From a virus (lineage: Duplodnaviria; Caudoviricetes), in IMG/VR virus record IMGVR_UViG_3300034073_002739, positions 1 through 54,439 of that record: 54,439 nt of DNA. One strand, 5' to 3'. The translations under genes were made by a program, and so were the position numbers. Each line of letters starts with the position of its first letter. Within the stretch, counting starts at the first letter, position 1. Of this stretch, positions 1-11,683 are shown piece by piece. The notes under the pieces are model-generated. The model was given only the letters and a program-made list of their open reading frames with translations, ran no database searches and was not told the origin of the DNA.

Positions 1-83
1 GCCCAGGTGGTGAAATTGGTAGACACGCTGGTCTTAGAAGCCAGTGCTTCGGCGTGACGGTTCGAGTCCGTCCCAGGGCACCA
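1..83 (+). tRNA. tRNA-Leu(TAG)
   Basis: Cloverleaf with long variable arm, anticodon loop CT-TAG-AA, GGTTCGAGTCC T arm, encoded CCA. Confidence 0.95.
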
Positions 84-179
84 TACTAGAGCATATTGGC
101 ACAGTAATATTTTAGCTCGGTGAAAGCTTTGTGCAAAAATCCAGATGCTATAGCTTTACTCTAATATGTTCTAATATGG
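81..179 (+). ncRNA. CCATA...TATGG stem-closed RNA cassette A
   Basis: 81-99 pairs with 161-179 (18/19, two G-U); starts on the CCA of tRNA-Leu; internal GCACAG/TTGTGC stem. Confidence 0.6.
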
Positions 180-280
180 TAGATAGTCAATGTTAAAAAT
201 GGGTATTCAGAGTATCCGTTCCAAAAAGGTGCAAATCCTGATTAAGCATAGAGCTTGGTAAAAACAACATAGACTAGCCA
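177..280 (+). ncRNA. Stem-closed structured RNA with T-loop-like hairpin (A')
   Basis: TAGTCAATGTT/AACATAGACTA closing stem; hairpins ATGGGTATT/AGTATCCGT, AGG-TGCAAAT-CCT and AAGC/GCTT. Confidence 0.45.
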
Positions 281-465
281 TAGTTAAGTATTTTGTTCGT
301 CCTAGGTGAAATAAACAGGACATTGCAGCCCAGAGAAATAAGGGTATCCGGCCGGTATATCCCTAAAGCGGGCTGAAGTTAATCGTAGCCGATCTTTAGC
401 GGGATCATATGGCGGGAAGATTAACTCATGCGCAAGCAGGCAGTAAGCAAAATACTTTACTATGG
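278..465 (+). ncRNA. CCATA...TATGG stem-closed RNA cassette B (multibranch)
   Basis: 278-297 pairs with 446-465 (19/20); internal stems GTCCT/AGGAC, CAGCCC/GGGCTG, AGTTAATC/GATTAACT, TGC-GCAA-GCA; terminal GG is the 5' end of tRNA-Tyr. Confidence 0.65.
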
Positions 466-550
466 ATGCGTAGCCAAATGGTTGACGGCAGCGGGCTGTA
501 AACTCGTGACACTAGAAACGCTGGTGGTTCGAATCCATCCGCATCCACCA
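464..550 (+). tRNA. tRNA-Tyr(GTA)
   Basis: GGATGCG/CGCATCC acceptor, CT-GTA-AA loop, long variable arm, ACCA. Confidence 0.95.
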
Positions 551-631
551 TAGTATAGCTAATTGACTAATAAGTAGGACACCCATAGGCATAGTATGGG
601 CCAACCTCACCTGCAGTTAGCTATACTATGG
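548..631 (+). ncRNA. CCATA...TATGG stem-closed RNA cassette C
   Basis: 548-565 pairs with 614-631 (18/18, one G-U); starts on tRNA-Tyr CCA; internal CCCATA/TATGGG hairpin. Confidence 0.6.
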
Positions 632-697
632 CTGTTGACTGGCCCGATAAGGCACTCTAAAGCCTGAAATGGGAAAACTTATTTCTAGTCAACACCC
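630..697 (+). ncRNA. Stem-closed three-way-junction RNA (C')
   Basis: GGCTGTTGACTGG pairs with CTAGTCAACACCC (one mismatch); internal GCC/GGC and GAAATGGG/CTTATTTC hairpins. Confidence 0.45.
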
Positions 698-951
698 GTA
701 ACTGCGCTGCTCACGCTGAACCTATAAACTCTAGGCTGGTGACTAGGATGGGGTCGTCCCCCGTAATGATACTGTGCCGAATAACGTAACCGGCCGAGCC
801 TAGAGCAAGCAGGGATGAGCTCCTGCATAGCTCATATGCCATGTGTATAAAGAGTAACAGAACTGGCTAAGGCCAATTCTAGCAAAAGTTCCCGCAACGC
901 TTAAATAGTCGTATCCCTAGACTATACCGCGCACTATGCGAAAAAAGTTAC
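698..951 (+). ncRNA. ~250-nt multi-stem RNA with H-type pseudoknot, unknown class
   Basis: GTAACT/AGTTAC closing stem, CTCTAGGCT/AGCCTAGAG, GCAGG/CCTGC with loop ATGAGCT complementary to downstream AGCTCAT, AGAACTGGC/GCCAATTCT, ATAGTC/GACTAT; no credible ORF. Confidence 0.55.
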
Positions 952-1044
952 AAGTGATGGTGGACTACGTAACTGGATATTTTAGACCTGCGGGCCGTCG
1001 CCCAAGAGTCAAAAGACACTATGAATCCACTTTAGGGAGTGGGG

Positions 1045-1127
1045 CCATAGTTCACCATACTGGTGTAGTTGAGGTCGTTCCTCATTTATGCGGTAACACT
1101 GCTAAAATCCAGTATGTTGAACTATGG
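1045..1127 (+). ncRNA. CCATA...TATGG stem-closed RNA cassette D
   Basis: 1045-1063 pairs with 1109-1127 (18/19); internal TGAGG/CCTCA hairpin. Confidence 0.55.
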
Positions 1128-1141
1128 TTTCAGGAGGTTTT

Positions 1142-1468
1142 ATGAGTCGTACATATAAAGATAAACCTGAAGATATTAAGTGGCCAGAAGAGCGACTAGA
1201 CTATAATACAGTTCGACTAGCCATAGACTTTGGTTGCCGTTTAGGTTATCGACGCATTGAAGTCGCAGGCCGGAAAACCAAAAAACCAAGAACTTATTGT
1301 CATCATCGCTGGTGGGCAAAGTCCCCGGGATGGTGGGTACGACTAACAATGACCCGGCCTCAGCGCAGAGCTGGGCGGGTGTGGGAAGCCAACATAAAAT
1401 ATGCTAAAGATTTGGATCTATTAGATCCGCCACAAGTTAGTCGTAAACCTCATGTATATTATTATTAA
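1142..1468 (+). CDS. Basic Trp-rich hypothetical phage protein
   Basis: ORF; AGGAGG Shine-Dalgarno before ATG 1142 (preferred over 1124). Confidence 0.75.
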   Translation: MSRTYKDKPEDIKWPEERLDYNTVRLAIDFGCRLGYRRIEVAGRKTKKPRTYCHHRWWAKSPGWWVRLTMTRPQRRAGRVWEANIKYAKDLDLLDPPQVSRKPHVYYY

Positions 1469-1469
1469 T

Positions 1470-1544
1470 GGGCTGCTAGTGATAATGGGAGCACGGTGCC
1501 TTTGCACGGCATAGGTCGGAGTTCGATCCTCCGGCGGTCCACCA
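1470..1544 (+). tRNA. tRNA-Ala(TGC)
   Basis: G3-U70 acceptor GGGCTGC/GCGGTCC, TT-TGC-AC loop, ACCA. Confidence 0.95.
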
Positions 1545-1605
1545 TCCAATAAGATTTGGGAACCAACCCAAACGGCCCCGCAAGGGAATTTTTAAACACA
1601 CGGAG

Positions 1606-1809
1606 ATGTGTATGATGGCATATAACGGATTAGACGTTGTTTCAGTCGATGTTCCGCTAATGCTTAGACTAATGGAATTTGCTCGTGAAGATGCTACATC
1701 CGACAAGGATTTGCATTTTGTAGCAGAACACTTAGTCAGGCTAATGCAGACAAATACTCTCCTTACCATGAAACACTATGATATGATAGTTGACAGGGAG
1801 GGTTTTTAA
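1606..1809 (+). CDS. Hypothetical protein (probable paralogue of 1809..2012)
   Basis: ORF, GGAG RBS region, translational coupling to next gene; exact start may be 1612/1615. Confidence 0.7.
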   Translation: MCMMAYNGLDVVSVDVPLMLRLMEFAREDATSDKDLHFVAEHLVRLMQTNTLLTMKHYDMIVDREGF

Positions 1810-2012
1810 TGGGCGATAAGTATTATAAGTTCGTAGAGATAGAGGTTAGCCCTAAACTCTTAAAAAAGCTCTTAGAACACGCAAAAGATCCTAAAGTAAC
1901 GCAAGATCATATAAACTATATGATTGAAAACATGAAATTGTTAGCACGGCATGACGAGTGCTTAACCTTAGACGAGTTTGATGTAATCACAGAAAAATCC
2001 TTAGTCATGTGA
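1809..2012 (+). CDS. Hypothetical protein
   Basis: ORF with GGAGG RBS; shares V-x-P/LL..L.E.A...LT...Y/FD.I pattern with previous gene. Confidence 0.75.
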   Translation: MGDKYYKFVEIEVSPKLLKKLLEHAKDPKVTQDHINYMIENMKLLARHDECLTLDEFDVITEKSLVM

Positions 2013-2090
2013 TTAAGGTCGGCAAGAAGGCGTGCCGGCCTTTCTTGTTGTTTTTAAACTCCAAAATAAAAATAATAACAGGAGAACAAA

Positions 2091-2849
2091 ATGGCAGAAT
2101 CAATCACCCCTGCAGGAATGATGATGAGCGGTGGCGACAGCCTTTTCGGAGGCAGTGGTCTTATTGGCGGTCTTATCTTAGGCTCACTCTTACGCAACAA
2201 CGGCAATCTATTCGGAGGCGAAGGCGCAGCAGCTGGAGCGGTTCTTCGTAACCCGCCCGAGCAAACTCAAGCCAATATGAGCTTAATGCAATCTATTGGT
2301 GCAGTAGACAAAGCTGTAGCTGTTGGCACAGCAGCCATGGAATCATCTCAGGCAGCACAAAGCGCAGCTATTGTTGCAGAAATTGGTCGCACAACTGGTA
2401 ATGTTGTTGGTCGTATTGATGCTACAACAGCAGCAGTTAATGCTAGTACTATGGTTTTAGCACAACAGCTAAACGGTATTCAGCAACAAGTAATGGAAAA
2501 CCGTTATGAGCTCAGCAAGGACATTAGTGCTGATGGCGACAAAACTCGTGCCTTAATTACTCAACAGTATGAGGCTACCCTAAACCGTCAGCTAAGTGAT
2601 GCAAATGCAGCAGTTATCGCCTTACAAGCTAAACTAGACAATGGCGCAGTTGCTCGTGGTGTTGAGGTTACTACAACCAACAACATCAATCAAATGCAAC
2701 AGCAGGCTCAACAGCAGCAACAGTGGGGTCAGCTCTACAATGCTATTTGGGGTCTAGCACAGAACATTCGTTCAAATAATGAAGCAATTAATGTTGGAAG
2801 CGGTACACTTACTGCTAGCCCAACAAACACAAATACTAACATTAGATAA
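2091..2849 (+). CDS. Gly-rich N-terminal hydrophobic, coiled-coil protein
   Basis: 252 aa ORF, AGGAG RBS, GGSGLIGGLILGSLL segment then Ala/Gln heptads. Confidence 0.85.
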   Translation: MAESITPAGMMMSGGDSLFGGSGLIGGLILGSLLRNNGNLFGGEGAAAGAVLRNPPEQTQANMSLMQSIGAVDKAVAVGTAAMESSQAAQSAAIVAEIGRTTGNVVGRIDATTAAVNASTMVLAQQLNGIQQQVMENRYELSKDISADGDKTRALITQQYEATLNRQLSDANAAVIALQAKLDNGAVARGVEVTTTNNINQMQQQAQQQQQWGQLYNAIWGLAQNIRSNNEAINVGSGTLTASPTNTNTNIR

Positions 2850-2866
2850 TCTCTAATTATTGGTTA

Positions 2867-2898
2867 GCCCCCTGTTCACAAGACACGGGGGCACTTTT
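2867..2898 (+). terminator. Intrinsic terminator
   Basis: GCCCCC.../...GGGGGC hairpin followed by ACTTTT. Confidence 0.55.
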
Positions 2899-2914
2899 AC
2901 TAGGAGATTATTAT

Positions 2915-3385
2915 ATGTATCCGTATTATTTACCTCCTCCTTGGATATTTAATTCCTACTGTCCCCCACCTATTGGTGGACAAGGTATTAGCGATAATGA
3001 TGTTATCATAAATCATCAAGGTACTGGTATGCCGGGACCGCCCGGACCTCCAGGACCGCCCGGACCTCCAGGCCCTAGTGTTGCTTGTACAAACACTAGC
3101 CGTGTTATCTTCAAAGACTATGAGGCGGAACCAACAGACTACTACATCGGAGTTAATAGTAAGGGACCCGTTACTATTACACTACCAGAAAAATCAGATA
3201 AGTGTCAGACACTTATAATTAAGGCGGAGATGGGTCCGCCACTGGGAACTAGGAAGATTACAGTTACTACAGCAGATGGATCATTAATAGACGATAAAAC
3301 TGAAATAGTCTTACAGAATCCATATGAATCAATCATGTTAGTACGTAGTCAACATATATGGTCAATTATTTCAAACTATAAATAA
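2915..3385 (+). CDS. Collagen-like (GPP repeat) protein with C-terminal beta domain
   Basis: GPPGPPGPPGPPGP encoded partly by an exact 18-nt tandem repeat at 3035-3070; AGGAG RBS. Confidence 0.8.
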   Translation: MYPYYLPPPWIFNSYCPPPIGGQGISDNDVIINHQGTGMPGPPGPPGPPGPPGPSVACTNTSRVIFKDYEAEPTDYYIGVNSKGPVTITLPEKSDKCQTLIIKAEMGPPLGTRKITVTTADGSLIDDKTEIVLQNPYESIMLVRSQHIWSIISNYK

Positions 3386-3392
3386 ATATATT

Positions 3393-3557
3393 ATGTTAAT
3401 CGTTACTAGAGAAACATTGACCCAAGAGCAGCAAGACATCCTAGATGCAGTAAACAATTTAATTGGTTGTAGCAAAGATGTTAGTGCCCATGGGTTTTAT
3501 CAATATTGTGAAGCTGAAAAAACCTTGGCAAATTTAATCTTGAATTTATCAAACTAA
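3393..3557 (+). CDS. Small hypothetical protein (54 aa)
   Basis: MLIVTRETLTQEQQDILDAV...; fills gap after previous stop, below ORF-track cutoff. Confidence 0.5.
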   Translation: MLIVTRETLTQEQQDILDAVNNLIGCSKDVSAHGFYQYCEAEKTLANLILNLSN

Positions 3558-3568
3558 TAGTGTATAAT
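3540..3568 (+). promoter_or_regulatory. Sigma70-type promoter
   Basis: TTGAAT-17-TATAAT. Confidence 0.7.
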
Positions 3569-3599
3569 TATTACTTCGGCGTTGATTGAAAGAGAAAAA

Positions 3600-3794
3600 A
3601 TGACAAAACAAGAAGCCTTAATTATCTTACAAGCTCTACCAGACGATGCCGAAGTAACCCTTATTGTAGGCCAATGTAACTTGTGGCAAATTCCTGAATA
3701 TAATCCACACCTCTGGAAGGCTCCACAATGGCAAATGCCTCAATATGATCCAAACAATCTATATAGGATAACTTGTGAAAATAAAACCTCGTAA
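3600..3794 (+). CDS. Hypothetical protein
   Basis: ORF downstream of promoter, AGAG RBS. Confidence 0.6.
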   Translation: MTKQEALIILQALPDDAEVTLIVGQCNLWQIPEYNPHLWKAPQWQMPQYDPNNLYRITCENKTS

Positions 3795-3891
3795 TCCCCT
3801 TGTGGCTCTAGCACATAAACGTCGTGCTGGATCGCACACCAAAACCCACAAGCAAATTCGTGGTAAACTAAATCGCAAACTGGATGCATAA
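3775..3891 (+). CDS. Small very basic peptide (38 aa) overlapping tRNA-Lys 5' end
   Basis: GTG start after AGGA; MKIKPRNPLVALAHKRRAGSHTKTHKQIRGKLNRKLDA; stop lies inside tRNA-Lys. Confidence 0.5.
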   Translation: MKIKPRNPLVALAHKRRAGSHTKTHKQIRGKLNRKLDA

Positions 3892-3956
3892 CTCAACGGT
3901 AGAGTAACCGGCTTTTAACCGGTAAGCTGTGGGTTCGAATCCCCCTGCATCCACCA
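3882..3956 (+). tRNA. tRNA-Lys(TTT)
   Basis: GGATGCA/TGCATCC, ACCGG-CT-TTT-AA-CCGGT, ACCA. Confidence 0.95.
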
Positions 3957-4016
3957 TATTAAAACATACTACTAAGAGTCCAGGTTCATAGCGTGGCATA
4001 GTGTGTTTCAATATGG
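3954..4016 (+). ncRNA. CCATA...TATGG stem-closed RNA cassette E
   Basis: 3954-3971 pairs with 3999-4016 (17/18, one G-U); starts on tRNA-Lys CCA. Confidence 0.6.
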
Positions 4017-4024
4017 AAAACTTT

Positions 4025-4118
4025 ACTAGCATAGTTTAATGGTAGAACTCCGAGCTTATACCTCGGCATGGCTCTAGATTGGGGCACGGTCTAGGTTCGA
4101 ATCCTAGTGCTAGTACCA
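4025..4118 (+). tRNA. tRNA with TAT (Ile) anticodon and long variable arm
   Basis: ACTAGCA/TGCTAGT acceptor, CCGAG-CT-TAT-AC-CTCGG, 24-nt variable region with GCTCT/GGGGC stem, GGTTCGAATCC, ACCA. Confidence 0.85.
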
Positions 4119-4121
4119 CTT

Positions 4122-4191
4122 AAGGCGAAAAGGGTAGCTCCCCTGTTAATTCTGCAAAATTAACTAGCCTATTAATACTCTTGCAGGAGTA
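4122..4191 (+). promoter_or_regulatory. Structured leader with kissing loop over HNH gene RBS
   Basis: AGGC/GCCT junction with AGGG/CCCT and GTTAATT/AATTAAC hairpins; loop CTGCAA complementary to loop TTGCAG of TACTC/GAGTA hairpin containing GGAG. Confidence 0.55.
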
Positions 4192-4196
4192 CACAA

Positions 4197-4718
4197 ATGT
4201 ACACTAAACCTATTAAAATATTAGAAGGCCTAAAGGCCGGATACCAGCAATTTAGAGACCCTGAACATCCTCTAAGTTATTCTTCTGATGGGTCTGTTTA
4301 TTTACATAGACATATTGCTAGCCTAAAAATAGGCAGATGGTTAAAAAGTAATGAACACGTACACCACATAGATGGTAATAAATTAAATAATGATCCAGAT
4401 AATCTACAAGTATTAACTAATAAAGAACATGGATTATTACATAACTTAAGTAATACGTCTACAATATCATGCACAGTTTGTAAAACTTTATTTAAACAAA
4501 TAAATAAAACAGTAAAATACTGTAGTACAAAATGCTTTCATGAATCAACAGTAAAAAACAATGAAATAACCAAAGAATTATTAGATAGTCTTATACCTTA
4601 TAATTCTTGGGTTTCTTTAGGTAAAAAATTTAATTACTCAGATGTAGGAATAAAAAAGAGAGCAAAAGCACTTGGATGTGATTTATCTAAAATAAATTCC
4701 TACAAATATAAAATTTAG
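4197..4718 (+). CDS. Free-standing HNH homing endonuclease with C-terminal Zn finger
   Basis: YLHRHIA...VHHIDGNKLNNDPDNL HNH motif; CTVC...YCSTKC; AT-rich relative to neighbours. Confidence 0.9.
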   Translation: MYTKPIKILEGLKAGYQQFRDPEHPLSYSSDGSVYLHRHIASLKIGRWLKSNEHVHHIDGNKLNNDPDNLQVLTNKEHGLLHNLSNTSTISCTVCKTLFKQINKTVKYCSTKCFHESTVKNNEITKELLDSLIPYNSWVSLGKKFNYSDVGIKKRAKALGCDLSKINSYKYKI

Positions 4719-4808
4719 TGAGTTGGATGAGAGGCTTAAATCAACGGTTTGCTAAACCGTCGTTTCAGGAAACTGGGACCGTGGGTTCGAATCCCACACT
4801 CACTGCCA
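4717..4808 (+). tRNA. tRNA-Ser(GCT)
   Basis: AGTGAGT/ACTCACT, TT-GCT-AA loop, long variable arm, G73 + CCA. Confidence 0.95.
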
Positions 4809-4819
4809 CGGAGAATACT

Positions 4820-5119
4820 ATGGATCATGATAAACTAATAGCCGCTTTAGATAGCATAATTATTAAAGCTAAAAATGTTAAACGCGGAGATAGCGTTAGG
4901 TGGAACTCTAGTGGCGGTGTAGCTAGAGGCAAAGTTACCAAAGTAATTACAGACGGCGAGGAGCAAATCCCCAACTCTAGTTTTAAGATTACAGGCACAC
5001 CGGATGATCCAGGGGCTCTTATTCGTGTTTACCGTGAACAAGACGGCGAATACAAACCTACAGACACTATTGTAGGGCATAAGGTAAAAACTCTAACAAA
5101 AATTCCTGCACTGGATTAA
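4820..5119 (+). CDS. DUF2945/Hva1 Tudor-like protein
   Basis: GDSVRWNSSGGVARGKV...GTPDDP...VGHK pattern; GGAG RBS; true start 4820, not 4718. Confidence 0.7.
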   Translation: MDHDKLIAALDSIIIKAKNVKRGDSVRWNSSGGVARGKVTKVITDGEEQIPNSSFKITGTPDDPGALIRVYREQDGEYKPTDTIVGHKVKTLTKIPALD

Positions 5120-5121
5120 TT

Positions 5122-5274
5122 ATGCCTTGCTATAAATGTTCAAATGGTAAGTACAAATACGGTCAAAAAGGCAATTGTCAGTTTGATACCCTAGCGGCGT
5201 GTAAGGCTGCTGAAGCAGCTATTCATGCCCGCGAAAACGAAAAGCCTAAAAAAGAAGAAAAACCTAAAAAATAA
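5122..5274 (+). CDS. Small Cys-containing hypothetical protein (50 aa)
   Basis: MPCYKCSNGKYKYGQKGNC...; fills gap exactly up to tRNA-Glu. Confidence 0.6.
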   Translation: MPCYKCSNGKYKYGQKGNCQFDTLAACKAAEAAIHARENEKPKKEEKPKK

Positions 5275-5349
5275 GCACCCATCGACTATCGGTTAGGTCA
5301 ACACCCTTTCAAGGTGTAGAGACGGGTTCGACTCCCGTTGGGTGTACCA
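5275..5349 (+). tRNA. tRNA-Glu(TTC)
   Basis: GCACCCA/TGGGTGT, CT-TTC-AA loop, ACCA. Confidence 0.95.
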
Positions 5350-5354
5350 ACTAT

Positions 5355-5433
5355 CTGAGTGTAGGAAAGTCAGGCTCAATCCGTCTCGTTTGGGGCGAGA
5401 AGATCGCAGGTTCGAATCCTGCCACTCAGACCA
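5355..5433 (+). tRNA. tRNA-Pro(TGG)
   Basis: CTGAGTG/CACTCAG, TT-TGG-GG loop, ACCA. Confidence 0.95.
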
Positions 5434-5438
5434 ACAAA

Positions 5439-5514
5439 ACCACTGTAGTTCAATGGACAAGAATATCTTGCTACGAACGAGAAGATAAAGGTTCGATTCC
5501 TTTCAGTGGTTCCA
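5439..5514 (+). tRNA. tRNA-Arg(ACG)
   Basis: ACCACTG/CAGTGGT, CT-ACG-AA loop, TCCA. Confidence 0.95.
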
Positions 5515-5526
5515 AGAACAATTAGG

Positions 5527-5601
5527 TGTGACTGAACCCAAAAAGTGAGGGAGCAGGCTGTGAACCTGTTTTGCTAGCGGGAGCGTTACCCGTCAGTCAC
5601 C
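5527..5601 (+). tRNA. Atypical tRNA-His(GTG)
   Basis: GTGACTG/CAGTCAC, CT-GTG-AA loop, C73; T at -1, T-loop AGCGTTA, no encoded CCA. Confidence 0.75.
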
Positions 5602-5608
5602 CCTAATT

Positions 5609-5684
5609 GCTGCTTTAGCTGATGTGGTCATAGCAACGGTCTGAAGAATCGTGGAACCCTGTTCGATCCGGGGAAGCAGCACCA
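5609..5684 (+). tRNA. tRNA-Phe(GAA)
   Basis: GCTGCTT/AAGCAGC, CT-GAA-GA loop, ACCA. Confidence 0.95.
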
Positions 5685-5685
5685 C

Positions 5686-5760
5686 AGCCGATTAGCTCAG
5701 TGGTAGAGCAATGTTTTGATAAAGCAGAGGTCGCTGGTTCAATCCCAGCATCGGCTACCA
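5686..5760 (+). tRNA. tRNA-Ile(GAT)
   Basis: AGCCGAT/ATCGGCT, TT-GAT-AA loop, ACCA. Confidence 0.93.
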
Positions 5761-5873
5761 GTTTCGGTTAGCTATAGAGCCTTAATACCTATAGTCGCAT
5801 TCTATACCGGCGTAAGAGTATAGCGTTAACCATAGCAGACGATAAGTGCTATGCCGGACAGGTAACCGGCTCC
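5761..5873 (+). ncRNA. Four-way-junction RNA directly after tRNA-Ile
   Basis: CGGTTA/TAACCG encloses hairpins GCTATAG/CTATAGT, CTATAC/GTATAG and CATAGCA/TGCTATG. Confidence 0.55.
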
Positions 5874-5897
5874 TTACACACAACACACGAGGTTATA

Positions 5898-6137
5898 ATG
5901 ACAACTAAAAATCCCTATGAGATTCGTACTGAGCTTCTGCAACTTGCTCAGACTTATCTTGAAAACCAGTTTCAAGCTAACAAACAGTTTGCCGAACAAA
6001 GCTATCAACAAATGGTAGAGCTTGGCCAAGTTCAGCCAGAAGATTGGGCTAAACATATGCCCAAATTCTATGATTTCAAAGACATTTTGGAACGAGCCAA
6101 AGAACTCTACGGCTTTGTAAATAATGAAAGTCGCTGA
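5898..6137 (+). CDS. Phage hypothetical protein
   Basis: KNPYEIRTELLQLA...ILERAKELYGFV; GAGG RBS. Confidence 0.8.
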   Translation: MTTKNPYEIRTELLQLAQTYLENQFQANKQFAEQSYQQMVELGQVQPEDWAKHMPKFYDFKDILERAKELYGFVNNESR

Positions 6138-6282
6138 GCTATGGCAGCGCGTCTTGGAGTGTGTTCGTCCGTACACATTCGAGGATTATGTCAAAGAATA
6201 CGGCCCCCAAGATCACAAAGAACTAGAAGAACTTGAGCGTAAATGGTCGCAAAGTGGCGGCTGGTTTAACAAATCACAATAA
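6124..6282 (+). CDS. Small hypothetical protein (52 aa)
   Basis: MKVAELWQRVLECVRPY...ELEELERKW; overlaps previous stop. Confidence 0.55.
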   Translation: MKVAELWQRVLECVRPYTFEDYVKEYGPQDHKELEELERKWSQSGGWFNKSQ

Positions 6283-6289
6283 CAACAGA

Positions 6290-6363
6290 CGCGCGGTAGA
6301 GAAAAGGCATCTTACCAGTCTCATAAGCTGGAGTTGAGGGTTCGAGTCCCTCCTGCGCAACCA
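6290..6363 (+). tRNA. tRNA-Met(CAT), initiator-like
   Basis: C1xA72 mismatch, CT-CAT-AA loop, ACCA; lacks the three G-C anticodon-stem pairs. Confidence 0.88.
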
Positions 6364-6380
6364 ACACACAGGACACACAA

Positions 6381-6839
6381 ATGTCACAAACTATTAAAAA
6401 TTTGGAAGCAGCATTTGCTGGCGAGAGTCAGGCTTATGCTAAATATTTGTATTTTGGTCGTCTAGCAGATGAGCTGGGCCAATATAAAATTGCTGATCAC
6501 TTTTATCAAACCGCCGAACAAGAAATCAAACACGCCCATAGTCATCTTCAGCTCTTAATCGGCGAACCCGACATCCTAGAGTGCATTCAAATGGCCATTG
6601 ATGGTGAAACTTACGAATATACAGTAATGTATCCTGAAATGGAGCAACAAGCTATTCACGAAGGCAGAGAACTGGACGCTAAAGAAGCACACGAACAAGC
6701 ACGAGAGAGTAAGATTCATGCTGATGAATTTAGAGAACTACTTGAAATGGCAACAAAACGCTTTGGCGCACTGGCTCGAATTGAGCAAAAACATGCTGAA
6801 GGTTATCGTCGACTACAGGAGGCAGCAAATGAGGAGTGA
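6381..6839 (+). CDS. rbr: Rubrerythrin (ferritin-like di-iron domain)
   Basis: TIKNLEAAFAGESQA..KY...E..HA...AIDGETYEYTVMYP...E..H motifs. Confidence 0.92.
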   Translation: MSQTIKNLEAAFAGESQAYAKYLYFGRLADELGQYKIADHFYQTAEQEIKHAHSHLQLLIGEPDILECIQMAIDGETYEYTVMYPEMEQQAIHEGRELDAKEAHEQARESKIHADEFRELLEMATKRFGALARIEQKHAEGYRRLQEAANEE

Positions 6840-6963
6840 TATGGTTTGTGTAGTTTGTGGTCATGTTCATGACACTGATCTTGAAGGCGAATGGGGATTG
6901 CTTCCCGACGACTTTGAGTGTCCCGAGTGTGGCTGTGGTAAAGAAGATTACATGGCTATGTGA
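6829..6963 (+). CDS. Rubredoxin
   Basis: CVVCGH...LPDDFECPECG; AGGAGG RBS before ATG 6829. Confidence 0.88.
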   Translation: MRSDMVCVVCGHVHDTDLEGEWGLLPDDFECPECGCGKEDYMAM

Positions 6964-6970
6964 TCCCCTT

Positions 6971-7044
6971 CTCCTAGTGGTGTAATGGCAGCACGATAGT
7001 CTCCAAAACTATTAGTTGCGGTTCGAGTCCGTACTAGGAGGCCA
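6971..7044 (+). tRNA. tRNA-Trp(CCA)
   Basis: CTCCTAG/CTAGGAG, CT-CCA-AA loop, GCCA. Confidence 0.95.
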
Positions 7045-7058
7045 CGAAAAATTTTGTC

Positions 7059-7087
7059 TTGACCCTAAACCTCAGCGATGCTATAAT
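7059..7087 (+). promoter_or_regulatory. Sigma70-type promoter
   Basis: TTGACC-17-TATAAT, extended -10 TG, upstream A/T tract. Confidence 0.8.
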
Positions 7088-7117
7088 ATTGTTTCTGTGA
7101 TTGATTTAGGAAACCAA

Positions 7118-7342
7118 ATGAACCACTGTACAGCCTTGCAGCAAGTTACTACTCCCTTGTTCTTGATTCCTGCCTATGGTCGCCGCTATCGCTCACGCGA
7201 AGCAGCCTTGCAAGACTGGCTAAAAGGCAAAGACTTTCAGATTCTTGGAGGGCCGTACTGTTCAATTCGTGACGTAAATCAAATGCGACAAGAATATGCT
7301 CGTATGTACATTCAGTACGAGTTTGGCACTGTTGAGGTTTAA
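7118..7342 (+). CDS. Hypothetical protein
   Basis: AGGA RBS; LIPAYGRRY...DWLKGKDF; start 7118 rather than 7016 (inside tRNA). Confidence 0.75.
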   Translation: MNHCTALQQVTTPLFLIPAYGRRYRSREAALQDWLKGKDFQILGGPYCSIRDVNQMRQEYARMYIQYEFGTVEV

Positions 7343-7349
7343 CCCATTT

Positions 7350-7433
7350 GCGACTGTGGCGTAATAGGTAGCCGCAAGGGACTTAAAATCCCTCGCCTTG
7401 TGCGTGCCGGTTCGAGTCCGGCCAGTCGCACCA
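7350..7433 (+). tRNA. tRNA-Leu(TAA)
   Basis: GCGACTG/CAGTCGC, CT-TAA-AA loop, variable arm, ACCA. Confidence 0.95.
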
Positions 7434-7583
7434 TAACACTAGACCCGAAAGCGAAGCAGGCTTAGCTAGCCTGGCCTGACTATCGAGGCTAGACCTCTCC
7501 CACTACTGTTTAGCCACAGACCACTAGTAGGGATGCCCGCCACGATTGGCATTAAACGGATATGATAGTGTCTAGTACTATGG
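7431..7583 (+). ncRNA. CCATA...TATGG stem-closed RNA cassette F
   Basis: 7431-7444 pairs with 7570-7583 (12/14); internal CAGGCT/AGCCTG, GCCT/AGGC, CTACTG/TAGTAG, GCCA/TGGC; loop ACTATC complementary to GATAGT near 3' end. Confidence 0.6.
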
Positions 7584-7783
7584 AAACAACATATAAATAC
7601 CCACTTTACCCAACCCTTAACGCGTATTTGTTTAGTATGCTTGGGTCTCGAGAACTAGTAAATAAGTGGTACGAGTCACCTAATCGAGCATTTGATCTTA
7701 AACCGCCTATACAACTAATCGAATCAGGAGATGTTGGTAGAGCCCAAGTATACAAATATGTGTTAAATATTGCACACAGATAA
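7580..7783 (+). CDS. Stand-alone Xre/MbcA/ParS antitoxin C-terminal domain-like (DUF2384) protein
   Basis: MLGSRELVNKWYESPNRAFDLKPPIQLI...GRAQV matches W..PN.A....P..L....G...V pattern; start 7580 or 7562. Confidence 0.6.
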   Translation: METTYKYPLYPTLNAYLFSMLGSRELVNKWYESPNRAFDLKPPIQLIESGDVGRAQVYKYVLNIAHR

Positions 7784-7942: not shown

Positions 7943-8410
7943 ATGAAAAAATTTGACTTAGAACAAATCAAACAATTTATTCAACAGCAAAAACCAAGTA
8001 CCAAAATCTACCTTGGAGTAGATTCAGAACGTGTTTGCTCTAACAATAAATGGTACGCAGACTATCACATAGCCATTGTAGCCCATATTGAGGGCAAGCA
8101 CGGATGTAAAGTATTTGGGCAAATTGTTCGTGAGCGTGATTACGATAAGCATAAAAATAAACCTACTATGCGTTTAATGCAAGAGGTTTATAAGGCCGGA
8201 GAACTATTCTTGGCACTAGAAGATGTGCTTAAAGACAGAGATGTAGAAATTCACCTAGATATAAATCCCAGTGAAAAGTACGCAAGTAATCATGTTGTTA
8301 GTCAAGCTCTTGGATACATAAAAAGTACTTGCAATCTTCAAGCCAGAATCAAACCACAAGCCTTTGCAGCTACCGGAGCTGCTAATCGACTAAAACACTT
8401 ACTCAAATGA
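7943..8410 (+). CDS. RNase H-like YkuK family protein
   Basis: IYLGVDS...RLMQEV...EIHLDIN...IKP.AFAA..AA motifs. Confidence 0.82.
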   Translation: MKKFDLEQIKQFIQQQKPSTKIYLGVDSERVCSNNKWYADYHIAIVAHIEGKHGCKVFGQIVRERDYDKHKNKPTMRLMQEVYKAGELFLALEDVLKDRDVEIHLDINPSEKYASNHVVSQALGYIKSTCNLQARIKPQAFAATGAANRLKHLLK

Positions 8411-9365: not shown

Positions 9366-9494
9366 ATGGTGATAAAAAAGCTGGCTAGCTATTTCATACT
9401 AGGCTTAATCCTTTTCGGATTAAGCCTAGTTATCATTCCCATTATAGGCATTGTTGTAGGCATTGTCTGGGACTATATAAAAGTGCTCTTTTAA
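9366..9494 (+). CDS. Small hydrophobic membrane peptide (42 aa)
   Basis: AAGGA RBS; MVIKKLASYFILGLILFGLSLVIIPIIGIVVGIVWDYIKVLF. Confidence 0.55.
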   Translation: MVIKKLASYFILGLILFGLSLVIIPIIGIVVGIVWDYIKVLF

Positions 9495-9818
9495 GCCCTT
9501 TTATATAGTTGTATGAAGTTAACCAAAAAGTGTCTTGGACGCGGCTATCGTATGCCGCCACCTCCACCAAAAGCATACTTCTCTGACCACAAGATGACTG
9601 GCATACCGGGCCGGACTTGGCAGAGTATAATCAACCCCAAGTATGCTTTTGATGGGGGTGACAGGATTCGACAGGGCAAAGAGTAGGGCGATGGACAACT
9701 CGACACAGAGAGTCGTAAAAAACTAAACAAAATAAACGCAAACGATGAAACGTGGGCATTAGCCGCCTAAACTCGGCTTAGGGTTTCCCCAGTTTTCCTC
9801 GTAACAGAAAAACTGGGA
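9495..9818 (+). ncRNA. ssrA: Circularly permuted (two-piece) tmRNA; tag ANDETWALAA
   Basis: Acceptor piece ends GGAC-GCGGC/GCCGC-CACCTCC-ACCA (9569) upstream of coding piece starting GGGGGTGACAGGATTCGAC (9654); G3-U70; tag ORF 9738-9770; outer ends approximate. Confidence 0.9.
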
Positions 9819-9821
9819 CAC

Positions 9822-9872
9822 AATGGCCTTTTAAGGCATTTTAATTTAACTTTCTTGCTCTCATGAGGAGAA
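9822..9872 (+). promoter_or_regulatory. ROSE-like RNA thermometer
   Basis: TTCTTGCT pairs over AGGAGAA Shine-Dalgarno of the sHsp gene, preceded by GCCTT/AAGGC hairpin. Confidence 0.6.
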
Positions 9873-9877
9873 CACCG

Positions 9878-10318
9878 ATGACACTAAAAGATATTAATAA
9901 ATACTTTCTAGGCTTTGACGAGGCTCAGGCTCGTATCAACCAGCTACACAATCACATGGTTTCTAAAGCAAATGTAAACTATCCACCTTATAATGTTCGT
10001 AAGGCCGGAGAACACCAATACTTGCTAGAACTTGCTGTTGCTGGTTTCCATGAAGATGAAATTACTGTAGAAACAACAAAAGGTGAGCTTATTATCTCTG
10101 CCAAAAAATCAGAGAGTGAAAGCGATGCAAACTACAGTACTTGGATTCATCAAGGCATTGCCTACAGAGGTTTTACACGTACCTTTTATCTAGACAATCA
10201 CTATGAGGTTCTACAGGCTGAGCTTAAAGATGGCTTGCTAAAGGTTTACCTAGGACTTCACGAAGATAAAAAGCCTAAACGCATTCCGATTGGCAATAAA
10301 CAACATATTGAGCTTTAG
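9878..10318 (+). CDS. Small heat-shock protein (Hsp20, IbpA-like)
   Basis: NYPPYNV...LELAVAGF...IHQGIAYRGFTRTF...LKDGLL...KRIPI. Confidence 0.93.
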   Translation: MTLKDINKYFLGFDEAQARINQLHNHMVSKANVNYPPYNVRKAGEHQYLLELAVAGFHEDEITVETTKGELIISAKKSESESDANYSTWIHQGIAYRGFTRTFYLDNHYEVLQAELKDGLLKVYLGLHEDKKPKRIPIGNKQHIEL

Positions 10319-11608: not shown

Positions 11609-11637
11609 TTGAATTGGCTTGGTATCTGTGATATAAT
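11609..11637 (+). promoter_or_regulatory. Sigma70-type promoter
   Basis: TTGAAT-17-TATAAT with TG extension. Confidence 0.75.
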
Positions 11638-11683
11638 ATTATTTTATTGCAGATACCAAGCCTTTTCTATTTTAGGCATAAAA

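What the first reader, a model, noticed from the sequence alone, without database searches (positions are those of the whole stretch)
81..7583. Family of tRNA-anchored CCATA...TATGG hairpin cassettes, each with a different structured RNA cargo
Seen: six elements (81-179, 278-465, 548-631, 1045-1127, 3954-4016, 7431-7583) begin CCATA, end TATGG and are closed by 14-20 bp stems. Four start exactly on the encoded CCA of a tRNA (Leu, Tyr, Lys, Leu), and one ends on the 5' GG of tRNA-Tyr. Stem sequences differ beyond the terminal 5 bp yet keep pairing, four of them using G-U pairs, which points to selection on RNA rather than a DNA inverted repeat. The enclosed ~25-150 nt cargoes are unrelated to each other and mostly structured. 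Inference: a modular small-RNA delivery system in which tRNA processing releases stem-stabilised cargo RNAs (decoys, aptamers or antitoxin mimics against host defence), or a switch controlling tRNA 3' maturation by sequestering CCA. I know of no named family with this architecture, but could not search.
Basis: partly seen in the sequence, partly recalled or inferred. Interest (0 to 1): 0.88.

Follow-up and report, generated by a model that had tools for sequence, protein, structure and literature searches.

The report
Phage hairpin spacers anchored on tRNA CCA
The six elements belong to a large, previously undescribed family of RNA hairpins found only in phage tRNA gene arrays; each starts on the CCA end of a tRNA or similar small RNA, and they most likely act as spacers that are cut out during RNA maturation while carrying swappable inserts.

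Summary
The core observation holds. All six CCATA...TATGG hairpins exist, with closing helices of 18, 19, 18, 18, 17 and 12 bp. Four start on the encoded CCA of a tRNA and one ends on tRNA-Tyr G1G2.

They are not six unrelated stems. Four (E1, E3, E4, E5) match a covariance model built from other phages. The family has a conserved 17-bp stem.
- Its 3' arm occurs as an exact 17-mer in at least 120 IMG/VR contigs, 114 with a true hairpin.
- In cellular genomes it forms a hairpin only on 3 tRNA-dense MAG contigs.
- The stems covary, and G.U outnumbers A.C 338 to 48 on the tRNA strand.
- Of 126 hairpins near a tRNA 3' end, 122 start on C74.

Inserts are very diverse, only weakly structured and exchangeable. 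Hairpins favour tRNA-Lys, Glu and Gln.

The intervening sequence of the phages' permuted tmRNA carries the same inner stem. My best reading is therefore excised, IVS-like spacer hairpins that also serve as recombination junctions. No RNA data were available. I found no Rfam match and no description in seven literature searches.

The parts
1..83 (+). tRNA-Leu(UAG) with encoded CCA (81-83), which is also the first 3 nt of E1
   Evidence: ARAGORN; Rfam tRNA
81..179 (+). E1, a 99-nt family hairpin with an 18-bp closing helix, 2 G.U pairs and 1 mismatch
   Evidence: model R1 35.9 bits on + against 26.8 on -. E1 plus X1 form a 197-nt block that is absent in relatives L027 and L037
180..280 (+). X1, a roughly 100-nt non-tRNA RNA ending ...G-CCA; its CCA (278-280) starts E2
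   Evidence: fold z -3.1; homologues in 4 loci; no Rfam match
278..465 (+). E2, 188 nt, with a 19-bp closing helix around a conserved 148-nt core; its last GG is G1G2 of tRNA-Tyr
   Evidence: 14 loci at 97-98% identity; a second subgroup shares ACAUUGCAG...GGCAGUAARCA, with covarying inner helices; not matched by R1
464..550 (+). tRNA-Tyr(GUA), flanked by E2 on the 5' side and E3 on the 3' side
548..631 (+). E3, an 84-nt family hairpin with an 18-bp helix and 1 U.G pair
   Evidence: R1 35.9 bits on + against 27.3 on -. Relatives L001 and L027 hold a different 99-nt cassette at this site
632..1047 (+). X2, a conserved non-coding RNA of about 415 nt ending GGGG-CCA; its CCA starts E4
   Evidence: no Rfam match
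1045..1127 (+). E4, an 83-nt hairpin with an 18-bp helix, 5 nt upstream of the AGGAGG of ORF 1142-1468
   Evidence: R1 32.4 bits on + and 33.8 on -. The outer stem is conserved while the inside is 36, 83, 84 or 88 nt in relatives
3882..3956 (+). tRNA-Lys(UUU)
3954..4016 (+). E5, a 63-nt canonical family member with a 17-bp helix
   Evidence: R1 48.9 bits, E 9e-12. The same cassette occurs at 78-95% identity in 14 loci, behind at least 10 different upstream RNAs
7350..7433 (+). tRNA-Leu(UAA)
7431..7583 (+). E6, 153 nt, a divergent member placed by position only: a 5+7 bp helix with two A.C/C.A mismatches
   Evidence: R1 only 7.5 bits. Relatives carry canonical family hairpins after the same tRNA (L013, L036); E6 homologues at 92% in 3 loci
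9473..9508 (+). degenerate family-like hairpin (CUAUAUAAAAG...CUUUUAUAUAG) that abuts the start of the permuted tmRNA
   Evidence: R1 16-19 bits, E 0.002-0.02. In relatives a canonical ...TATGG arm sits at this place
9567..9653 (+). intervening sequence of the permuted tmRNA gene, running from the acceptor piece's CCA to just before the coding piece's first G; it folds as a hairpin related to the family
   Evidence: Rfam tmRNA_permuted 107 bits; R1 13.5-15.2 bits, E 0.03-0.1. The same IVS in 4 of 4 relatives tested matches R1 at E 4e-5 to 4e-3; folds

Best explanation
The six elements are members of a virus-specific family of transcribed spacer hairpins that punctuate phage RNA-gene arrays. 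E6 is placed in the family by position only; E2 only by its CCAUA/UAUGG ends, long closing stem and CCA-anchored position.

Anatomy. Each hairpin begins on the encoded C74-C75-A76 of a tRNA or of another small RNA that ends in CCA. It forms a stem of about 17-20 bp with a conserved sequence (consensus CCAUAUUGAARCACAUU ... AGUGUGUUUCAAUAUGG, usually followed by U) and a conserved U.G wobble. It encloses an insert of 0 to about 150 nt.

Proposed action (inferred). The hairpin works at the RNA level as a self-contained intervening sequence.
- It folds locally in the polycistronic transcript.
- It is then removed by the tRNA-maturation machinery. The upstream RNA is trimmed or cut back to its CCA. 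Where a tRNA follows, RNase P cuts at the hairpin's last G residues. A double-strand-specific nuclease may open the stem first.
- This is the route by which the intervening sequence of a circularly permuted tmRNA gene is removed. In these phages that tmRNA intervening sequence carries the same inner stem.

Recombination (partly shown). Because the stems of different copies are nearly identical, they also act as homology junctions. Inserts, and probably the neighbouring RNA genes, are exchanged within and between phages. Most inserts are passengers. A few look like RNAs in their own right: the E2 core, the E5-type loop and the tRNA-like inserts.

Shown versus inferred. Shown: family membership, the CCA anchoring, strand-specific pairing selection, restriction to viruses, insert turnover, and kinship with the tmRNA IVS. 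Inferred: transcription as one precursor, excision, and the enzymes involved.
For: Family and conservation:
Of these, 114 of 120 hold a true hairpin and 96 of 120 hold 5 or more tRNAs.
- A model built from 44 elements of other phages finds E5, E3, E1 and E4 at 32-49 bits.

Selection on RNA pairing:
- 98.1% of stem cells pair, against 91.3 +/- 0.5% in 500 shuffles (0 of 500 reach the observed value).
- 9 of 17 pairs show changes on both sides. Slid controls pair at 27-52%. U.G sits at position 16 in 39 of 44 elements.
- On the tRNA strand, G.U outnumbers A.C 338 to 48 over 225 hairpins, and 68 to 18 in the first set.

Registration with RNA ends:
- 122 of the 126 hairpins lying within 60 nt of a same-strand tRNA 3' end start exactly on C74.
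- 31 of 225 overlap the next tRNA's 5' end by 1-2 nt.
- 94 distinct upstream contexts of the 103 hairpins not behind a called tRNA were printed. By my reading, many look like structured non-tRNA RNAs, several are recurrent, and nearly all end in CCA.

Link to a known excised element:
- The IVS of the permuted tmRNA starts at the acceptor piece's CCA and ends at the coding piece's 5' G.
- In relatives it carries the arms GAAACACAUU ... AGUGUGUUUC.
- R1 hits this IVS in 4 of 4 relatives tested (E 3.7e-5 to 3.6e-3) and in the window (E 0.03-0.1).
[quoted passage not shown] PMC3985003 (passages read) names RNase P and tRNase Z as probable.

Junction role:
- A different cassette sits at the same site after tRNA-Tyr and after X2.
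- tRNA-Glu sites hold 25 hairpins with 19 insert types.
- The E5-type cassette lies behind at least 10 different RNAs.
- Four element pairs are at least 82% identical with both flanks unrelated.
- No empty sites were found; only shorter hairpins occupy the same sites.

Other:
- No promoter or terminator signal at the hairpins.
- Restricted to RNA arrays in the window and in two complete carrier genomes, G001 (a close relative) and G004.
Against: - There is no RNA evidence at all. No listed run is on record as RNA, and the laid contigs cannot show ends.
- Only 31 of 225 hairpins abut a tRNA 5' end. For most of them, RNase P cannot define the 3' side.
- Simple excised spacers need no conserved sequence. 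The 17-bp conservation, the fixed U.G and the near-identity of E5-type copies across unrelated contexts suggest either a sequence-specific partner or recent spread, and this reading does not explain them.
- The strong bias towards tRNA-Lys, Glu and Gln (63 of 185 against 44 of 1222) is not predicted by a generic spacer role.
- No phage-encoded RNase III was found in 0 of 5 complete carrier genomes.
- E2 and E6 do not match the family model.
- The 3' arm conservation in the second data set is inflated, because those loci were fished with that arm.
Confidence: 0.5

Rival explanations
1. A selfish, MITE-like palindromic DNA element that targets the junction just after tRNA genes (CCA|TA). It is tolerated there because tRNA 3' processing removes it from the RNA.
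For: - It has conserved termini and a variable interior, and minimal 35-43 nt forms consist of the arms alone.
- TA lies next to CCA and TGG, as in TA-duplicating elements (my recall of IS630/Tc1 and Correia elements).
- The E5-type cassette is 78-95% identical in 14 loci, behind at least 10 different upstream RNAs and with different downstream flanks.
- Four pairs are at least 82% identical with both flanks unrelated.
- It is spread over contigs of 4-400 kb.
- A 197-nt block (E1+X1) bounded by a CCATA direct repeat is present in the window and L001 but absent in L027 and L037.
Against: - No clean empty site was found when the flanks of 584 strand-wise hairpin detections were searched across all loci; the only matches were shorter hairpins at the same site.
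- No IS630-type DDE_3 transposase and no tyrosine recombinase was found in 0 of 5 complete carrier genomes.
- The element is absent from bona fide cellular genomes.
- Orientation is fixed with tRNA transcription, and the G.U to A.C bias is 7 to 1.
- Compensatory changes keep the stem paired.
Confidence: 0.2
2. The inserts are the point. The conserved stem is a handle that stabilises, releases or loads diverse small RNAs made from the tRNA operon (tRNA-like decoys, aptamers, regulators).
For: - The E2 core is 97-98% conserved in 14 loci, while a neighbouring protein is only 54-60% identical. Its inner helices covary.
- 13 of 141 insert types carry a canonical T-arm, mostly 2-6 nt before the 3' arm, which gives a cloverleaf closed by the long stem. 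Shuffles give a mean of 2.0 and a maximum of 7.
- Insert GC is 0.495, against 0.375 for the window.
- The E5-type loop is conserved across phages.
Against: - Insert-only folding is barely better than shuffles (mean z -0.31; 8.5% below -2; n = 129). In the window only E4's insert is clearly structured.
- There are 141 insert types among 198 elements.
- Insert-less hairpins occupy the same sites.
- ARAGORN tRNA genes inside the 198 elements. Three are ordinary tRNA-Lys genes spanned by a pairing between two neighbouring hairpins, one lies on the opposite strand, and one is an aberrant call.
Confidence: 0.15
3. A maturation brake. By pairing CCA, the hairpin keeps particular tRNAs (Lys, Glu, Gln, Leu) inert or protected until a specific cut is made. 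This would time their supply, allow wobble-base modification, or shield a reserve from host attack on these tRNAs.
For: - Hairpin frequency by tRNA: Lys(UUU) 22 of 49, Glu(UUC) 27 of 75, Lys(CUU) 3 of 11, Gln(UUG) 11 of 50, Leu(UAA) 8 of 43 and Leu(UAG) 10 of 54. Against these: Met 0 of 111, Ser(GCU) 0 of 66, Pro 0 of 64, Cys 0 of 61, Asp 0 of 60 and Ala 0 of 56. The odds ratio is 13.8 for Lys/Glu/Gln against the rest.
- AAA and GAA are the two commonest codons in the window.
- From my own knowledge, Lys, Glu and Gln tRNAs share thiolated U34, and tRNA-Lys is a known target of anticodon nucleases. A PARIS paper was seen as a search listing only (PMC11464382).
Against: - The counts are not corrected for shared ancestry.
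- Equally used codons such as AAT, ATT, GAT and ACT have tRNAs that rarely carry hairpins.
- Roughly half the hairpins follow non-tRNA RNAs.
- In the first set, tRNA-Asp and tRNA-Tyr also carry hairpins.
- No kinetic or expression data exist.
Confidence: 0.1
4. An integron-like system in which the hairpins are single-stranded-DNA recombination sites (attC-like) bounding RNA-gene cassettes.
For: - The hairpins have conserved ends and conserved structure with a variable centre and variable length, and they sit at gene boundaries.
- Tandem hairpins separated by only 2 nt exist (L104, L132, L200).
- The 197-nt block has its boundaries inside the conserved CCATA.
- G.T pairs are also tolerated in folded DNA (my own knowledge).
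Against: - No tyrosine recombinase was found in 0 of 5 complete carrier genomes.
- The ends do not resemble the attC core, which I recall as GTTRRRY.
- Most tRNAs in the arrays have no hairpin (107 of 1407).
- The exact registration with C74 and with RNase P sites points to RNA.
Confidence: 0.03

Closest known systems
Intervening sequence (IVS) of circularly permuted, two-piece tmRNA genes
   Same: It starts directly at the encoded CCA of an upstream tRNA-like piece and ends at the 5' G of a downstream piece. It is a hairpin and is absent from the mature RNA (PMC11915505 and PMC3985003, passages read). In these phages the tmRNA IVS shares the family's inner stem and is hit by the family model.
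   Different: The elements studied here follow ordinary tRNAs and other small RNAs, recur several times per genome, and have a conserved 17-bp sequence with a CCAUAUU base. They often do not abut a downstream tRNA-like 5' end, and they carry exchangeable inserts.
RNase III processing stems and rRNA intervening sequences (T7 early RNA, rRNA operons, 23S IVS); recalled, not tested
   Same: They are long double-stranded stems within polycistronic transcripts that separate mature units. They are sporadic and variable in length, and they are removed without religation.
   Different: The hairpins here are anchored to the nucleotide on CCA, their sequence is conserved across many phages, and they are biased by tRNA identity. 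No cleavage data exist, and no phage RNase III was found (0 of 5 genomes).
PeSL motifs of T4-type phages (PMC2839356, PMC4122927; search listing and start of abstracts only)
   Same: They are a repeated stem-loop motif at module borders in phage genomes, and they are proposed to mediate modular shuffling.
   Different: From the paper's title, PeSLs are composite promoter-terminator motifs; that they flank ORFs is my recollection. Here no promoter or terminator signal is present. The flanked units are RNA genes, and the motif is tied to CCA.
MITE-like palindromic repeats (Correia elements of Neisseria, REP, Nezha); recalled
   Same: They are short elements with conserved inverted termini and variable interiors, with TA at the junction, and they are dispersed in many copies. 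As I recall, Correia transcripts are cut by RNase III.
   Different: No target duplication or empty site was found, and no transposase. Wobble pairing is strand-specific, orientation is fixed, and the elements occur only in viruses.
Bacterial Y RNAs of the YrlA type (PMC4201824, passages read)
   Same: A long stem formed by the two ends encloses a tRNA-like domain with a T-arm. This is seen in 13 of 141 insert types.
   Different: No Ro60/TROVE gene was found in the window, in 4 IMG/VR carrier contigs or in the cultured phage BUCT-ZZ01. There is no Rfam match. Most inserts are not tRNA-like, and the stem sequence is unrelated.

Membership tests
IVS of permuted tmRNA genes | Begins immediately at the encoded CCA of the upstream RNA | tested here: met
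   Four of the six start on a called tRNA's CCA and two on the CCA of X1 or X2. In relatives, 122 of the 126 hairpins near a tRNA 3' end start on C74.
IVS of permuted tmRNA genes | Ends at the 5' end of a downstream RNase P substrate | tested here: inconclusive
   This is met by E2 (tRNA-Tyr) and by 31 of 225 family members. It is not met by E1, E3, E4, E5 (8 nt short of tRNA-Ile) or E6.
IVS of permuted tmRNA genes | Lies between the acceptor piece and the coding piece of a tmRNA | tested here: not met
   The six elements follow tRNAs, X1 or X2. Only the separate hairpin at 9567-9653 is the tmRNA IVS. The relationship is sequence and structure kinship, not membership.
IVS of permuted tmRNA genes | Absent from the mature RNA (excised) | not testable with these tools
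   No RNA run is listed, and contigs cannot show ends.
RNase III processing stem | Uninterrupted or near-uninterrupted dsRNA of about two helical turns | tested here: met
   The helices are 17-19 bp with 0-1 mismatch in E1-E5 and 12 bp in E6.
RNase III processing stem | Cleaved by RNase III | not testable with these tools
   No biochemical or RNA-end data are available. The phages encode no RNase III (0 of 5 genomes), so a host enzyme would be needed.
MITE (TA-duplicating, IS630/Tc1-type) | Terminal inverted repeats shared by copies | tested here: met
   There is a consensus 17-bp arm.
MITE (TA-duplicating, IS630/Tc1-type) | Empty sites and target-site duplication | tested here: not met
   No empty site was found among the flanks of 584 strand-wise hairpin detections; the four hits were shorter hairpins at the same site.
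MITE (TA-duplicating, IS630/Tc1-type) | A cognate transposase somewhere in carrier genomes | tested here: not met
   PF13358 was found in 0 of 5 complete carrier genomes. Other transposase families were not searched.
Integron attC site | Tyrosine recombinase (integrase) partner | tested here: not met
   PF00589 was found in 0 of 5 complete carrier genomes.
PeSL (promoter plus stem-loop/terminator) | Promoter and terminator elements within the motif | tested here: not met
   No + strand promoter-like site lies in any hairpin (two weak - strand matches overlap E1), no terminator-like site coincides with a closing stem (one - strand site lies inside E6's insert), and there is no U-tract after the stems. 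Promoter-like sites number 35, against 31 +/- 5.3 in shuffles.
Bacterial Y RNA (YrlA) | Encoded next to, and bound by, a Ro60/TROVE protein | tested here: not met
   PF05731 was found in 0 of 1 (window) and in 0 of 5 other carriers: 4 IMG/VR contigs and the cultured phage BUCT-ZZ01. Binding is not testable.
Bacterial Y RNA (YrlA) | tRNA-like domain with T- and D-arm inside a long closing stem | tested here: inconclusive
   A canonical T-arm is present in 13 of 141 insert types. None of the six window inserts has a canonical one. There is no Rfam Y-RNA match.
Any Rfam 15 family | Covariance-model match | tested here: not met
   No match to any of the six elements at gathering score, at E up to 1 over 8 kb, or at E up to 10 over 84-1130, apart from chance-level hits.

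The most novel reading that the evidence does not exclude
The conserved 17-bp stem is the portable handle of a phage RNA-cassette system. A sequence-specific factor would recognise the stem and its fixed U.G wobble; it could be phage-encoded, for example the RNase H-like DUF458 protein that accompanies tRNA arrays. Phages would swap inserts through the stems, building arsenals of small RNAs. These would include tRNA-like mimics placed behind exactly those tRNAs (Lys, Glu, Gln) that anticodon nucleases attack, so the hairpins would form part of a counter-defence device rather than being mere spacers.
Probability: 0.12. Interest if true: 0.9.

Novelty: new variant of a known kind. Interest (0 to 1): 0.64.

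Why it matters
Phage tRNA arrays are usually annotated as tRNAs plus 'intergenic' DNA. This work shows a different picture for a large group of uncultured phages and at least one cultured freshwater cyanophage.
- A conserved RNA hairpin punctuates the arrays, registered to the nucleotide on the CCA end.
- The arrays hold many further CCA-ending small RNAs of unknown function.

The family gives three things.
1. A concrete, testable model for how polycistronic RNA-gene arrays are matured in phages. It links that maturation to the poorly studied removal of the intervening sequence from two-piece tmRNA.
2. A likely recombination junction that explains modular turnover in these arrays.
3. An unexplained and strong preference for tRNA-Lys, Glu and Gln, the tRNAs at the centre of several phage-host conflicts.

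The family is also a ready candidate for a new Rfam entry and a marker of viral contigs mis-binned into MAGs.

Tried and rejected
- Rfam. No family matches any hairpin, X1, X2 or the E2 core. The hits at E 0.4-8 (Guanidine-II, Tombus_IRE, mir-4081, CRISPR-DR30) lie far below gathering scores and were treated as chance.
- X2 as RNase P RNA. A motif resembling ACAGAAC..GGCU caught my eye, but that stretch is absent from the X2 homologues of L001, L027 and L037 and Rfam finds nothing. Rejected.
- Cultured phages. blastn of the window against INPHARED matched only tRNAs. A 63-nt query is too short to reach E of 1 or below (no match). A direct scan then found two family hairpins in Synechococcus phage BUCT-ZZ01 and none behind the tRNAs of KVP40 or DLP_6.
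- RNA evidence. No RNA holder was listed. The run labelled RNA-Seq is 'probably DNA' and is kept as contigs. The laid contigs gave no ends, only joints typical of relatives and repeats. This counts neither for nor against expression.
- DUF458 as the hairpin-specific nuclease. It co-occurs with hairpins in 30 of 120 arm-pattern loci and in 4 of 5 complete carriers. It is equally present in arrays without hairpins: 9 of 9 hairpin-less loci with 5 or more tRNAs, plus KVP40 and DLP_6. It is therefore a tRNA-array gene, not a hairpin marker.
- Ro/TROVE, RtcB, RNase III, tyrosine recombinase and DDE_3. None was found in the carriers searched.
- Promoter or terminator role. No signal.
- Pairing of the discriminator base with the base after UGG. 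It is 82% paired, but no more than shuffled partners. This is a composition effect, and the helix does not demonstrably extend.
- Literature. Searches returned no description of a CCA-anchored hairpin family in phage tRNA arrays.

Full report
**What the window is.** The window is a 54.4-kb phage contig, 51% complete by CheckV.
- It encodes family A DNA polymerase, a DnaB-like helicase, an SbcC/Rad50-like protein and tail-tip proteins.
- Its first 12.7 kb is an RNA-gene array on the + strand. The array holds 21 tRNAs, all followed by CCA where I read the sequence, and a circularly permuted tmRNA.
- Small ORFs are interspersed in the array.

**The observation.** All six elements are present as described.
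- Closing helices in the minimum-free-energy folds are 18, 19, 18, 18, 17 and 12 bp. They contain 2, 1, 1, 0, 1 and 0 G.U pairs.
- E1, E3, E5 and E6 start on the CCA of tRNA-Leu(UAG), Tyr, Lys(UUU) and Leu(UAA). E2 ends on G1G2 of tRNA-Tyr.
- E2 and E4 also start on a CCA, that of two non-tRNA RNAs which I call X1 (180-280) and X2 (632-1047).
- Chance does not give this. Shuffled windows hold a mean of 0.4 such hairpins (max 2 in 20) against 6 observed. For 73 tRNAs in the arrays of three cultured phages, the best stem starting at C74 is 3-10 bp, against 17-18 bp here.
- 'Mostly structured cargo' fails. Insert-only z-scores are -0.18, -1.42, -0.22, -2.84, -1.10 and -0.76.

**A sequence family, not six unrelated stems.**
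- Relatives fetched through two array proteins (85 loci) hold 49 distinct hairpins of this kind. Their common stem is roughly CCAUAUUGAARCACAUU ... AGUGUGUUUCAAUAUGG.
- Of those 120 loci, 114 hold a true hairpin, 116 hold a tRNA and 96 hold five or more tRNAs.
- In one genome for each of 185,579 prokaryote species the same 17-mer occurs 23 times, which I estimate to be about chance level. It forms a hairpin in only 3 cases, all on short MAG contigs packed with 9-21 tRNAs, which I take to be mis-binned phage DNA.
- A covariance model (R1) was built from 44 elements of other phages. One of these, L131, comes from a contig related to the window and is the counterpart of E4.
- R1 finds E5 (48.9 bits), E3 and E1 (35.9 each) and E4 (32-34). 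It does not find E2, and it finds E6 only at 7.5 bits.
- E6 sits where relatives have canonical members, after tRNA-Leu(UAA). Some other phages carry canonical family hairpins after tRNA-Leu(UAG), the tRNA that E2 follows directly in close relatives. I therefore count E6 as a divergent relative by position, and E2 by its shared CCAUA/UAUGG ends, long closing stem and CCA anchoring; neither by sequence.

**Selection acts on an RNA, or at least on one strand.**
- On the 44-row alignment, 98.1% of stem cells pair, against 91.3 +/- 0.5% when partners are shuffled (0 of 500 shuffles reach the observed value).
- 9 of 17 pairs show changes on both sides. Sliding the partner gives 27-52% pairing.
- Position 16 is a U.G wobble in 39 of 44 rows.
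- Over 225 hairpins oriented by the tRNA strand, G.U pairs number 338 and A.C mismatches 48.
- R1 scores are higher on the tRNA strand for E5, E3 and E1.
- Caveat: the second set was fished with the 3' arm, so its sequence conservation is inflated. The pairing statistics rest on the positions that vary.

**Registration with RNA ends.**
- Of 126 hairpins lying within 60 nt downstream of a same-strand tRNA, 122 start exactly on C74. Of all 225, 31 overlap the next tRNA's first one or two nucleotides.
- The other 103 hairpins follow no tRNA that ARAGORN called. Their 94 distinct upstream contexts were printed. By my reading, many look like structured non-tRNA RNAs, several are recurrent and include homologues of X1 and X2, and nearly all end in CCA.
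- The base after the final GG is usually U.
- No promoter-like or terminator-like signal attaches to the hairpins.
- In the window and in two complete carrier genomes, G001 (a close relative) and G004, the hairpins lie only in the RNA array.

**Turnover of inserts.**
- Sites are stable while insides are not. After tRNA-Tyr, the window and L037 have one 84-nt cassette, while L001 and L027 have an unrelated 99-nt one.
- After X2 the outer stem is conserved, while the inside makes elements of 36, 83, 84 or 88 nt.
- No empty site was found; only shorter hairpins occupy the same place.
- The 198 distinct oriented elements fall into 141 insert types. The tRNA-Glu site alone shows 19 types in 25 loci.
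- Conversely, one cassette can sit in many places. The E5-type 63-mer, loop included, is 78-95% identical in 14 loci. It lies behind tRNA-Lys, Glu, Pro, Leu and at least six non-tRNA RNAs, with unrelated downstream flanks. Four further pairs are at least 82% identical with both flanks unrelated.
- E1 plus X1 form a 197-nt block bounded by a CCATA repeat. It is present in the window and L001 and absent in L027 and L037, where tRNA-Leu runs straight into E2.
- I read this as exchange by crossovers in the near-identical arms. True transposition is not excluded.

**What the inserts are.**
- On average they are only slightly more foldable than shuffles (mean z -0.31, n = 129). They are richer in G+C (0.495) than the window (0.375).
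- Thirteen of 141 types hold a canonical T-arm, usually 2-6 nt before the 3' arm (shuffles: mean 2.0, max 7). Folded, they look like cloverleaves closed by the long stem.
- ARAGORN finds no ordinary tRNA gene inside a single hairpin. Its 5 calls are three tRNA-Lys genes spanned by a pairing between neighbouring hairpins, one opposite-strand call and one aberrant call.
- The E2 core is a conserved RNA of its own. It is 97-98% identical in 14 loci, and a second subgroup shares two motifs and covarying helices.

**The link to tmRNA.**
- In the window's permuted tmRNA the acceptor piece ends in CCA. A hairpin follows at once and runs up to the G that starts the coding piece.
- R1 hits this hairpin weakly (E 0.03-0.1). 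It also hits a degenerate hairpin that abuts the tmRNA's start.
- In relatives the same intervening sequence begins CCA-GAAACACAUU and ends AGUGUGUUUC-UGAUGG. This is the family's inner stem, including its U.G.
- R1 hits this intervening sequence in 4 of 4 relatives tested, at E 3.7e-5 to 3.6e-3.
- The literature describes this intervening sequence as absent from mature tmRNA and removed by tRNA-processing enzymes, probably RNase P and tRNase Z (PMC11915505 and PMC3985003, passages read).
- This is the one point where the family touches a known maturation pathway, and it is the basis of my preferred mechanism.

**An unexpected bias.**
- Among 1407 distinct tRNA-plus-flank sequences in the arm-pattern loci, 107 carry a hairpin on their CCA.
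- The rate is 22 of 49 for Lys(UUU), 27 of 75 for Glu(UUC), 11 of 50 for Gln(UUG) and 3 of 11 for Lys(CUU). It is about 19% for Leu(UAA) and Leu(UAG).
- It is 0 of 111 for Met, 0 of 66 for Ser(GCU), 0 of 64 for Pro, 0 of 61 for Cys, 0 of 60 for Asp and 0 of 56 for Ala.
- Lys/Glu/Gln against the rest gives 63 of 185 against 44 of 1222, an odds ratio of 13.8. This is not corrected for shared ancestry.
- Codon demand explains only part of it. AAA and GAA are the commonest codons in the window, but AAT, ATT, GAT and ACT are nearly as common and their tRNAs rarely carry hairpins.
- I have no tested explanation.

**Enzymes.**
- No RNase III, Ro/TROVE, RtcB, tyrosine recombinase or DDE_3 transposase was found in five complete carrier genomes.
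- An RNase H-like DUF458 protein (window 7943-8410) is a regular companion of tRNA arrays. It appears in 30 of 120 and 36 of 85 loci, in 4 of 5 complete carriers and in 76 cultured-phage records.
- It is equally present where hairpins are absent.
- DUF458 is classed in the RNase H1 clade of the RNase H-like superfamily (PMC3985635, passages read).
- It remains a candidate array nuclease, but nothing ties it to the hairpins.

**Verdict.**
- The family is much larger and more uniform than six local stems suggest. It is restricted to viruses and related to the permuted-tmRNA intervening sequence.
- It most likely acts as an excised spacer and recombination junction (confidence about 0.5). Rival or complementary readings are a selfish mobile palindrome (0.2), an insert payload (0.15) and a maturation brake on particular tRNAs (0.1).
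- I found no description of it in Rfam 15 or in seven full-text searches.
- The decisive missing piece is RNA-end mapping, which is feasible in Synechococcus phage BUCT-ZZ01 because it carries two family members.

Noticed in passing
window 632-1047: X2 is a conserved non-coding RNA of about 415 nt that ends GGGG-CCA. It covers at least 70% of its length in 14 loci at about 77-78% identity and gives some hit in 24 loci. It has no Rfam match. In L113 and L185 a family hairpin sits inside the X2 homologue, after an internal stem-loop, which suggests that X2 is fragmented there.
   Followed up: partly
window 180-280: X1 is a CCA-ending RNA of about 100 nt (fold z -3.1) with homologues in 4 loci. 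Together with E1 it forms a 197-nt block that is present or absent between close relatives.
   Followed up: partly
relatives, e.g. L089:1770-1842, L090, L098, L105, L118, L124 (upstream of hairpins): Several recurrent families of non-tRNA structured RNAs, all ending in NCCA just before a family hairpin, populate these phage arrays. They include one ending ...GCAACACUGRCA-CCA that is also present in cultured phage BUCT-ZZ01.
   Followed up: no
arm-pattern loci L086-L205: Hairpin presence depends strongly on tRNA identity: Lys(UUU) 45%, Glu(UUC) 36% and Gln(UUG) 22%, against 0% for Met, Ser(GCU), Pro, Cys, Asp, Ala, Trp and His. The cause is unexplained, and the counts are not corrected for phylogeny.
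   Followed up: partly
window 7943-8410 (+): An RNase H-like DUF458/YkuK-family protein (PF04308, E 8e-18) is a hallmark of phage tRNA arrays. It is found in 30 of 120 and 36 of 85 loci and in 76 cultured-phage records, including KVP40 (next to an annotated RNA-binding protein), DLP_6 and BUCT-ZZ01. Its function is unknown.
   Followed up: partly
window 11609-12238 (+): A phosphoesterase (phrog_547, E 9e-53; weak Metallophos match) co-occurs with the arrays in 28 of 120 arm-pattern loci. HSP20 (9863-10318) co-occurs in 15 of 120.
   Followed up: no
window 9507-9770 (+): A permuted (two-piece) tmRNA gene is present. I read the tag from the sequence as ANDETWALAA. The best Rfam family is beta_tmRNA, and ARAGORN did not list the gene.
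   Followed up: partly
window 7562-7783 (+): A small ORF carries an Xre/MbcA/ParS antitoxin C-terminal domain (E 1e-7). Its in-frame ATG at 7580 lies inside the 3' arm of E6, so the hairpin could occlude or define its 5' end.
   Followed up: no
window 4025-4118 and 4197-4718 (+): tRNA-Ile(UAU) is unusually long at 94 nt. An HNH_3 homing-type endonuclease gene sits between it and tRNA-Ser and has no homologue in the 205 related loci.
   Followed up: no
window 6381-6963, 12395-12589, 45263-48022: A 152-aa ORF that I read by eye as rubrerythrin-like, followed by a small Cys-rich rubredoxin-like ORF, lies inside the RNA array; neither was scanned against any family library. There is also a Lar restriction-alleviation homologue and a 919-aa protein with an Mtd_N (major tropism determinant) N-terminus.
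   Followed up: no
L225, L228, L232 (genome collection): Three short contigs binned into freshwater MAGs (labelled Planktophila, Crocinitomicaceae and Planctomycetia) carry 9-21 tRNAs and family hairpins. They look like mis-binned phage DNA.
   Followed up: partly
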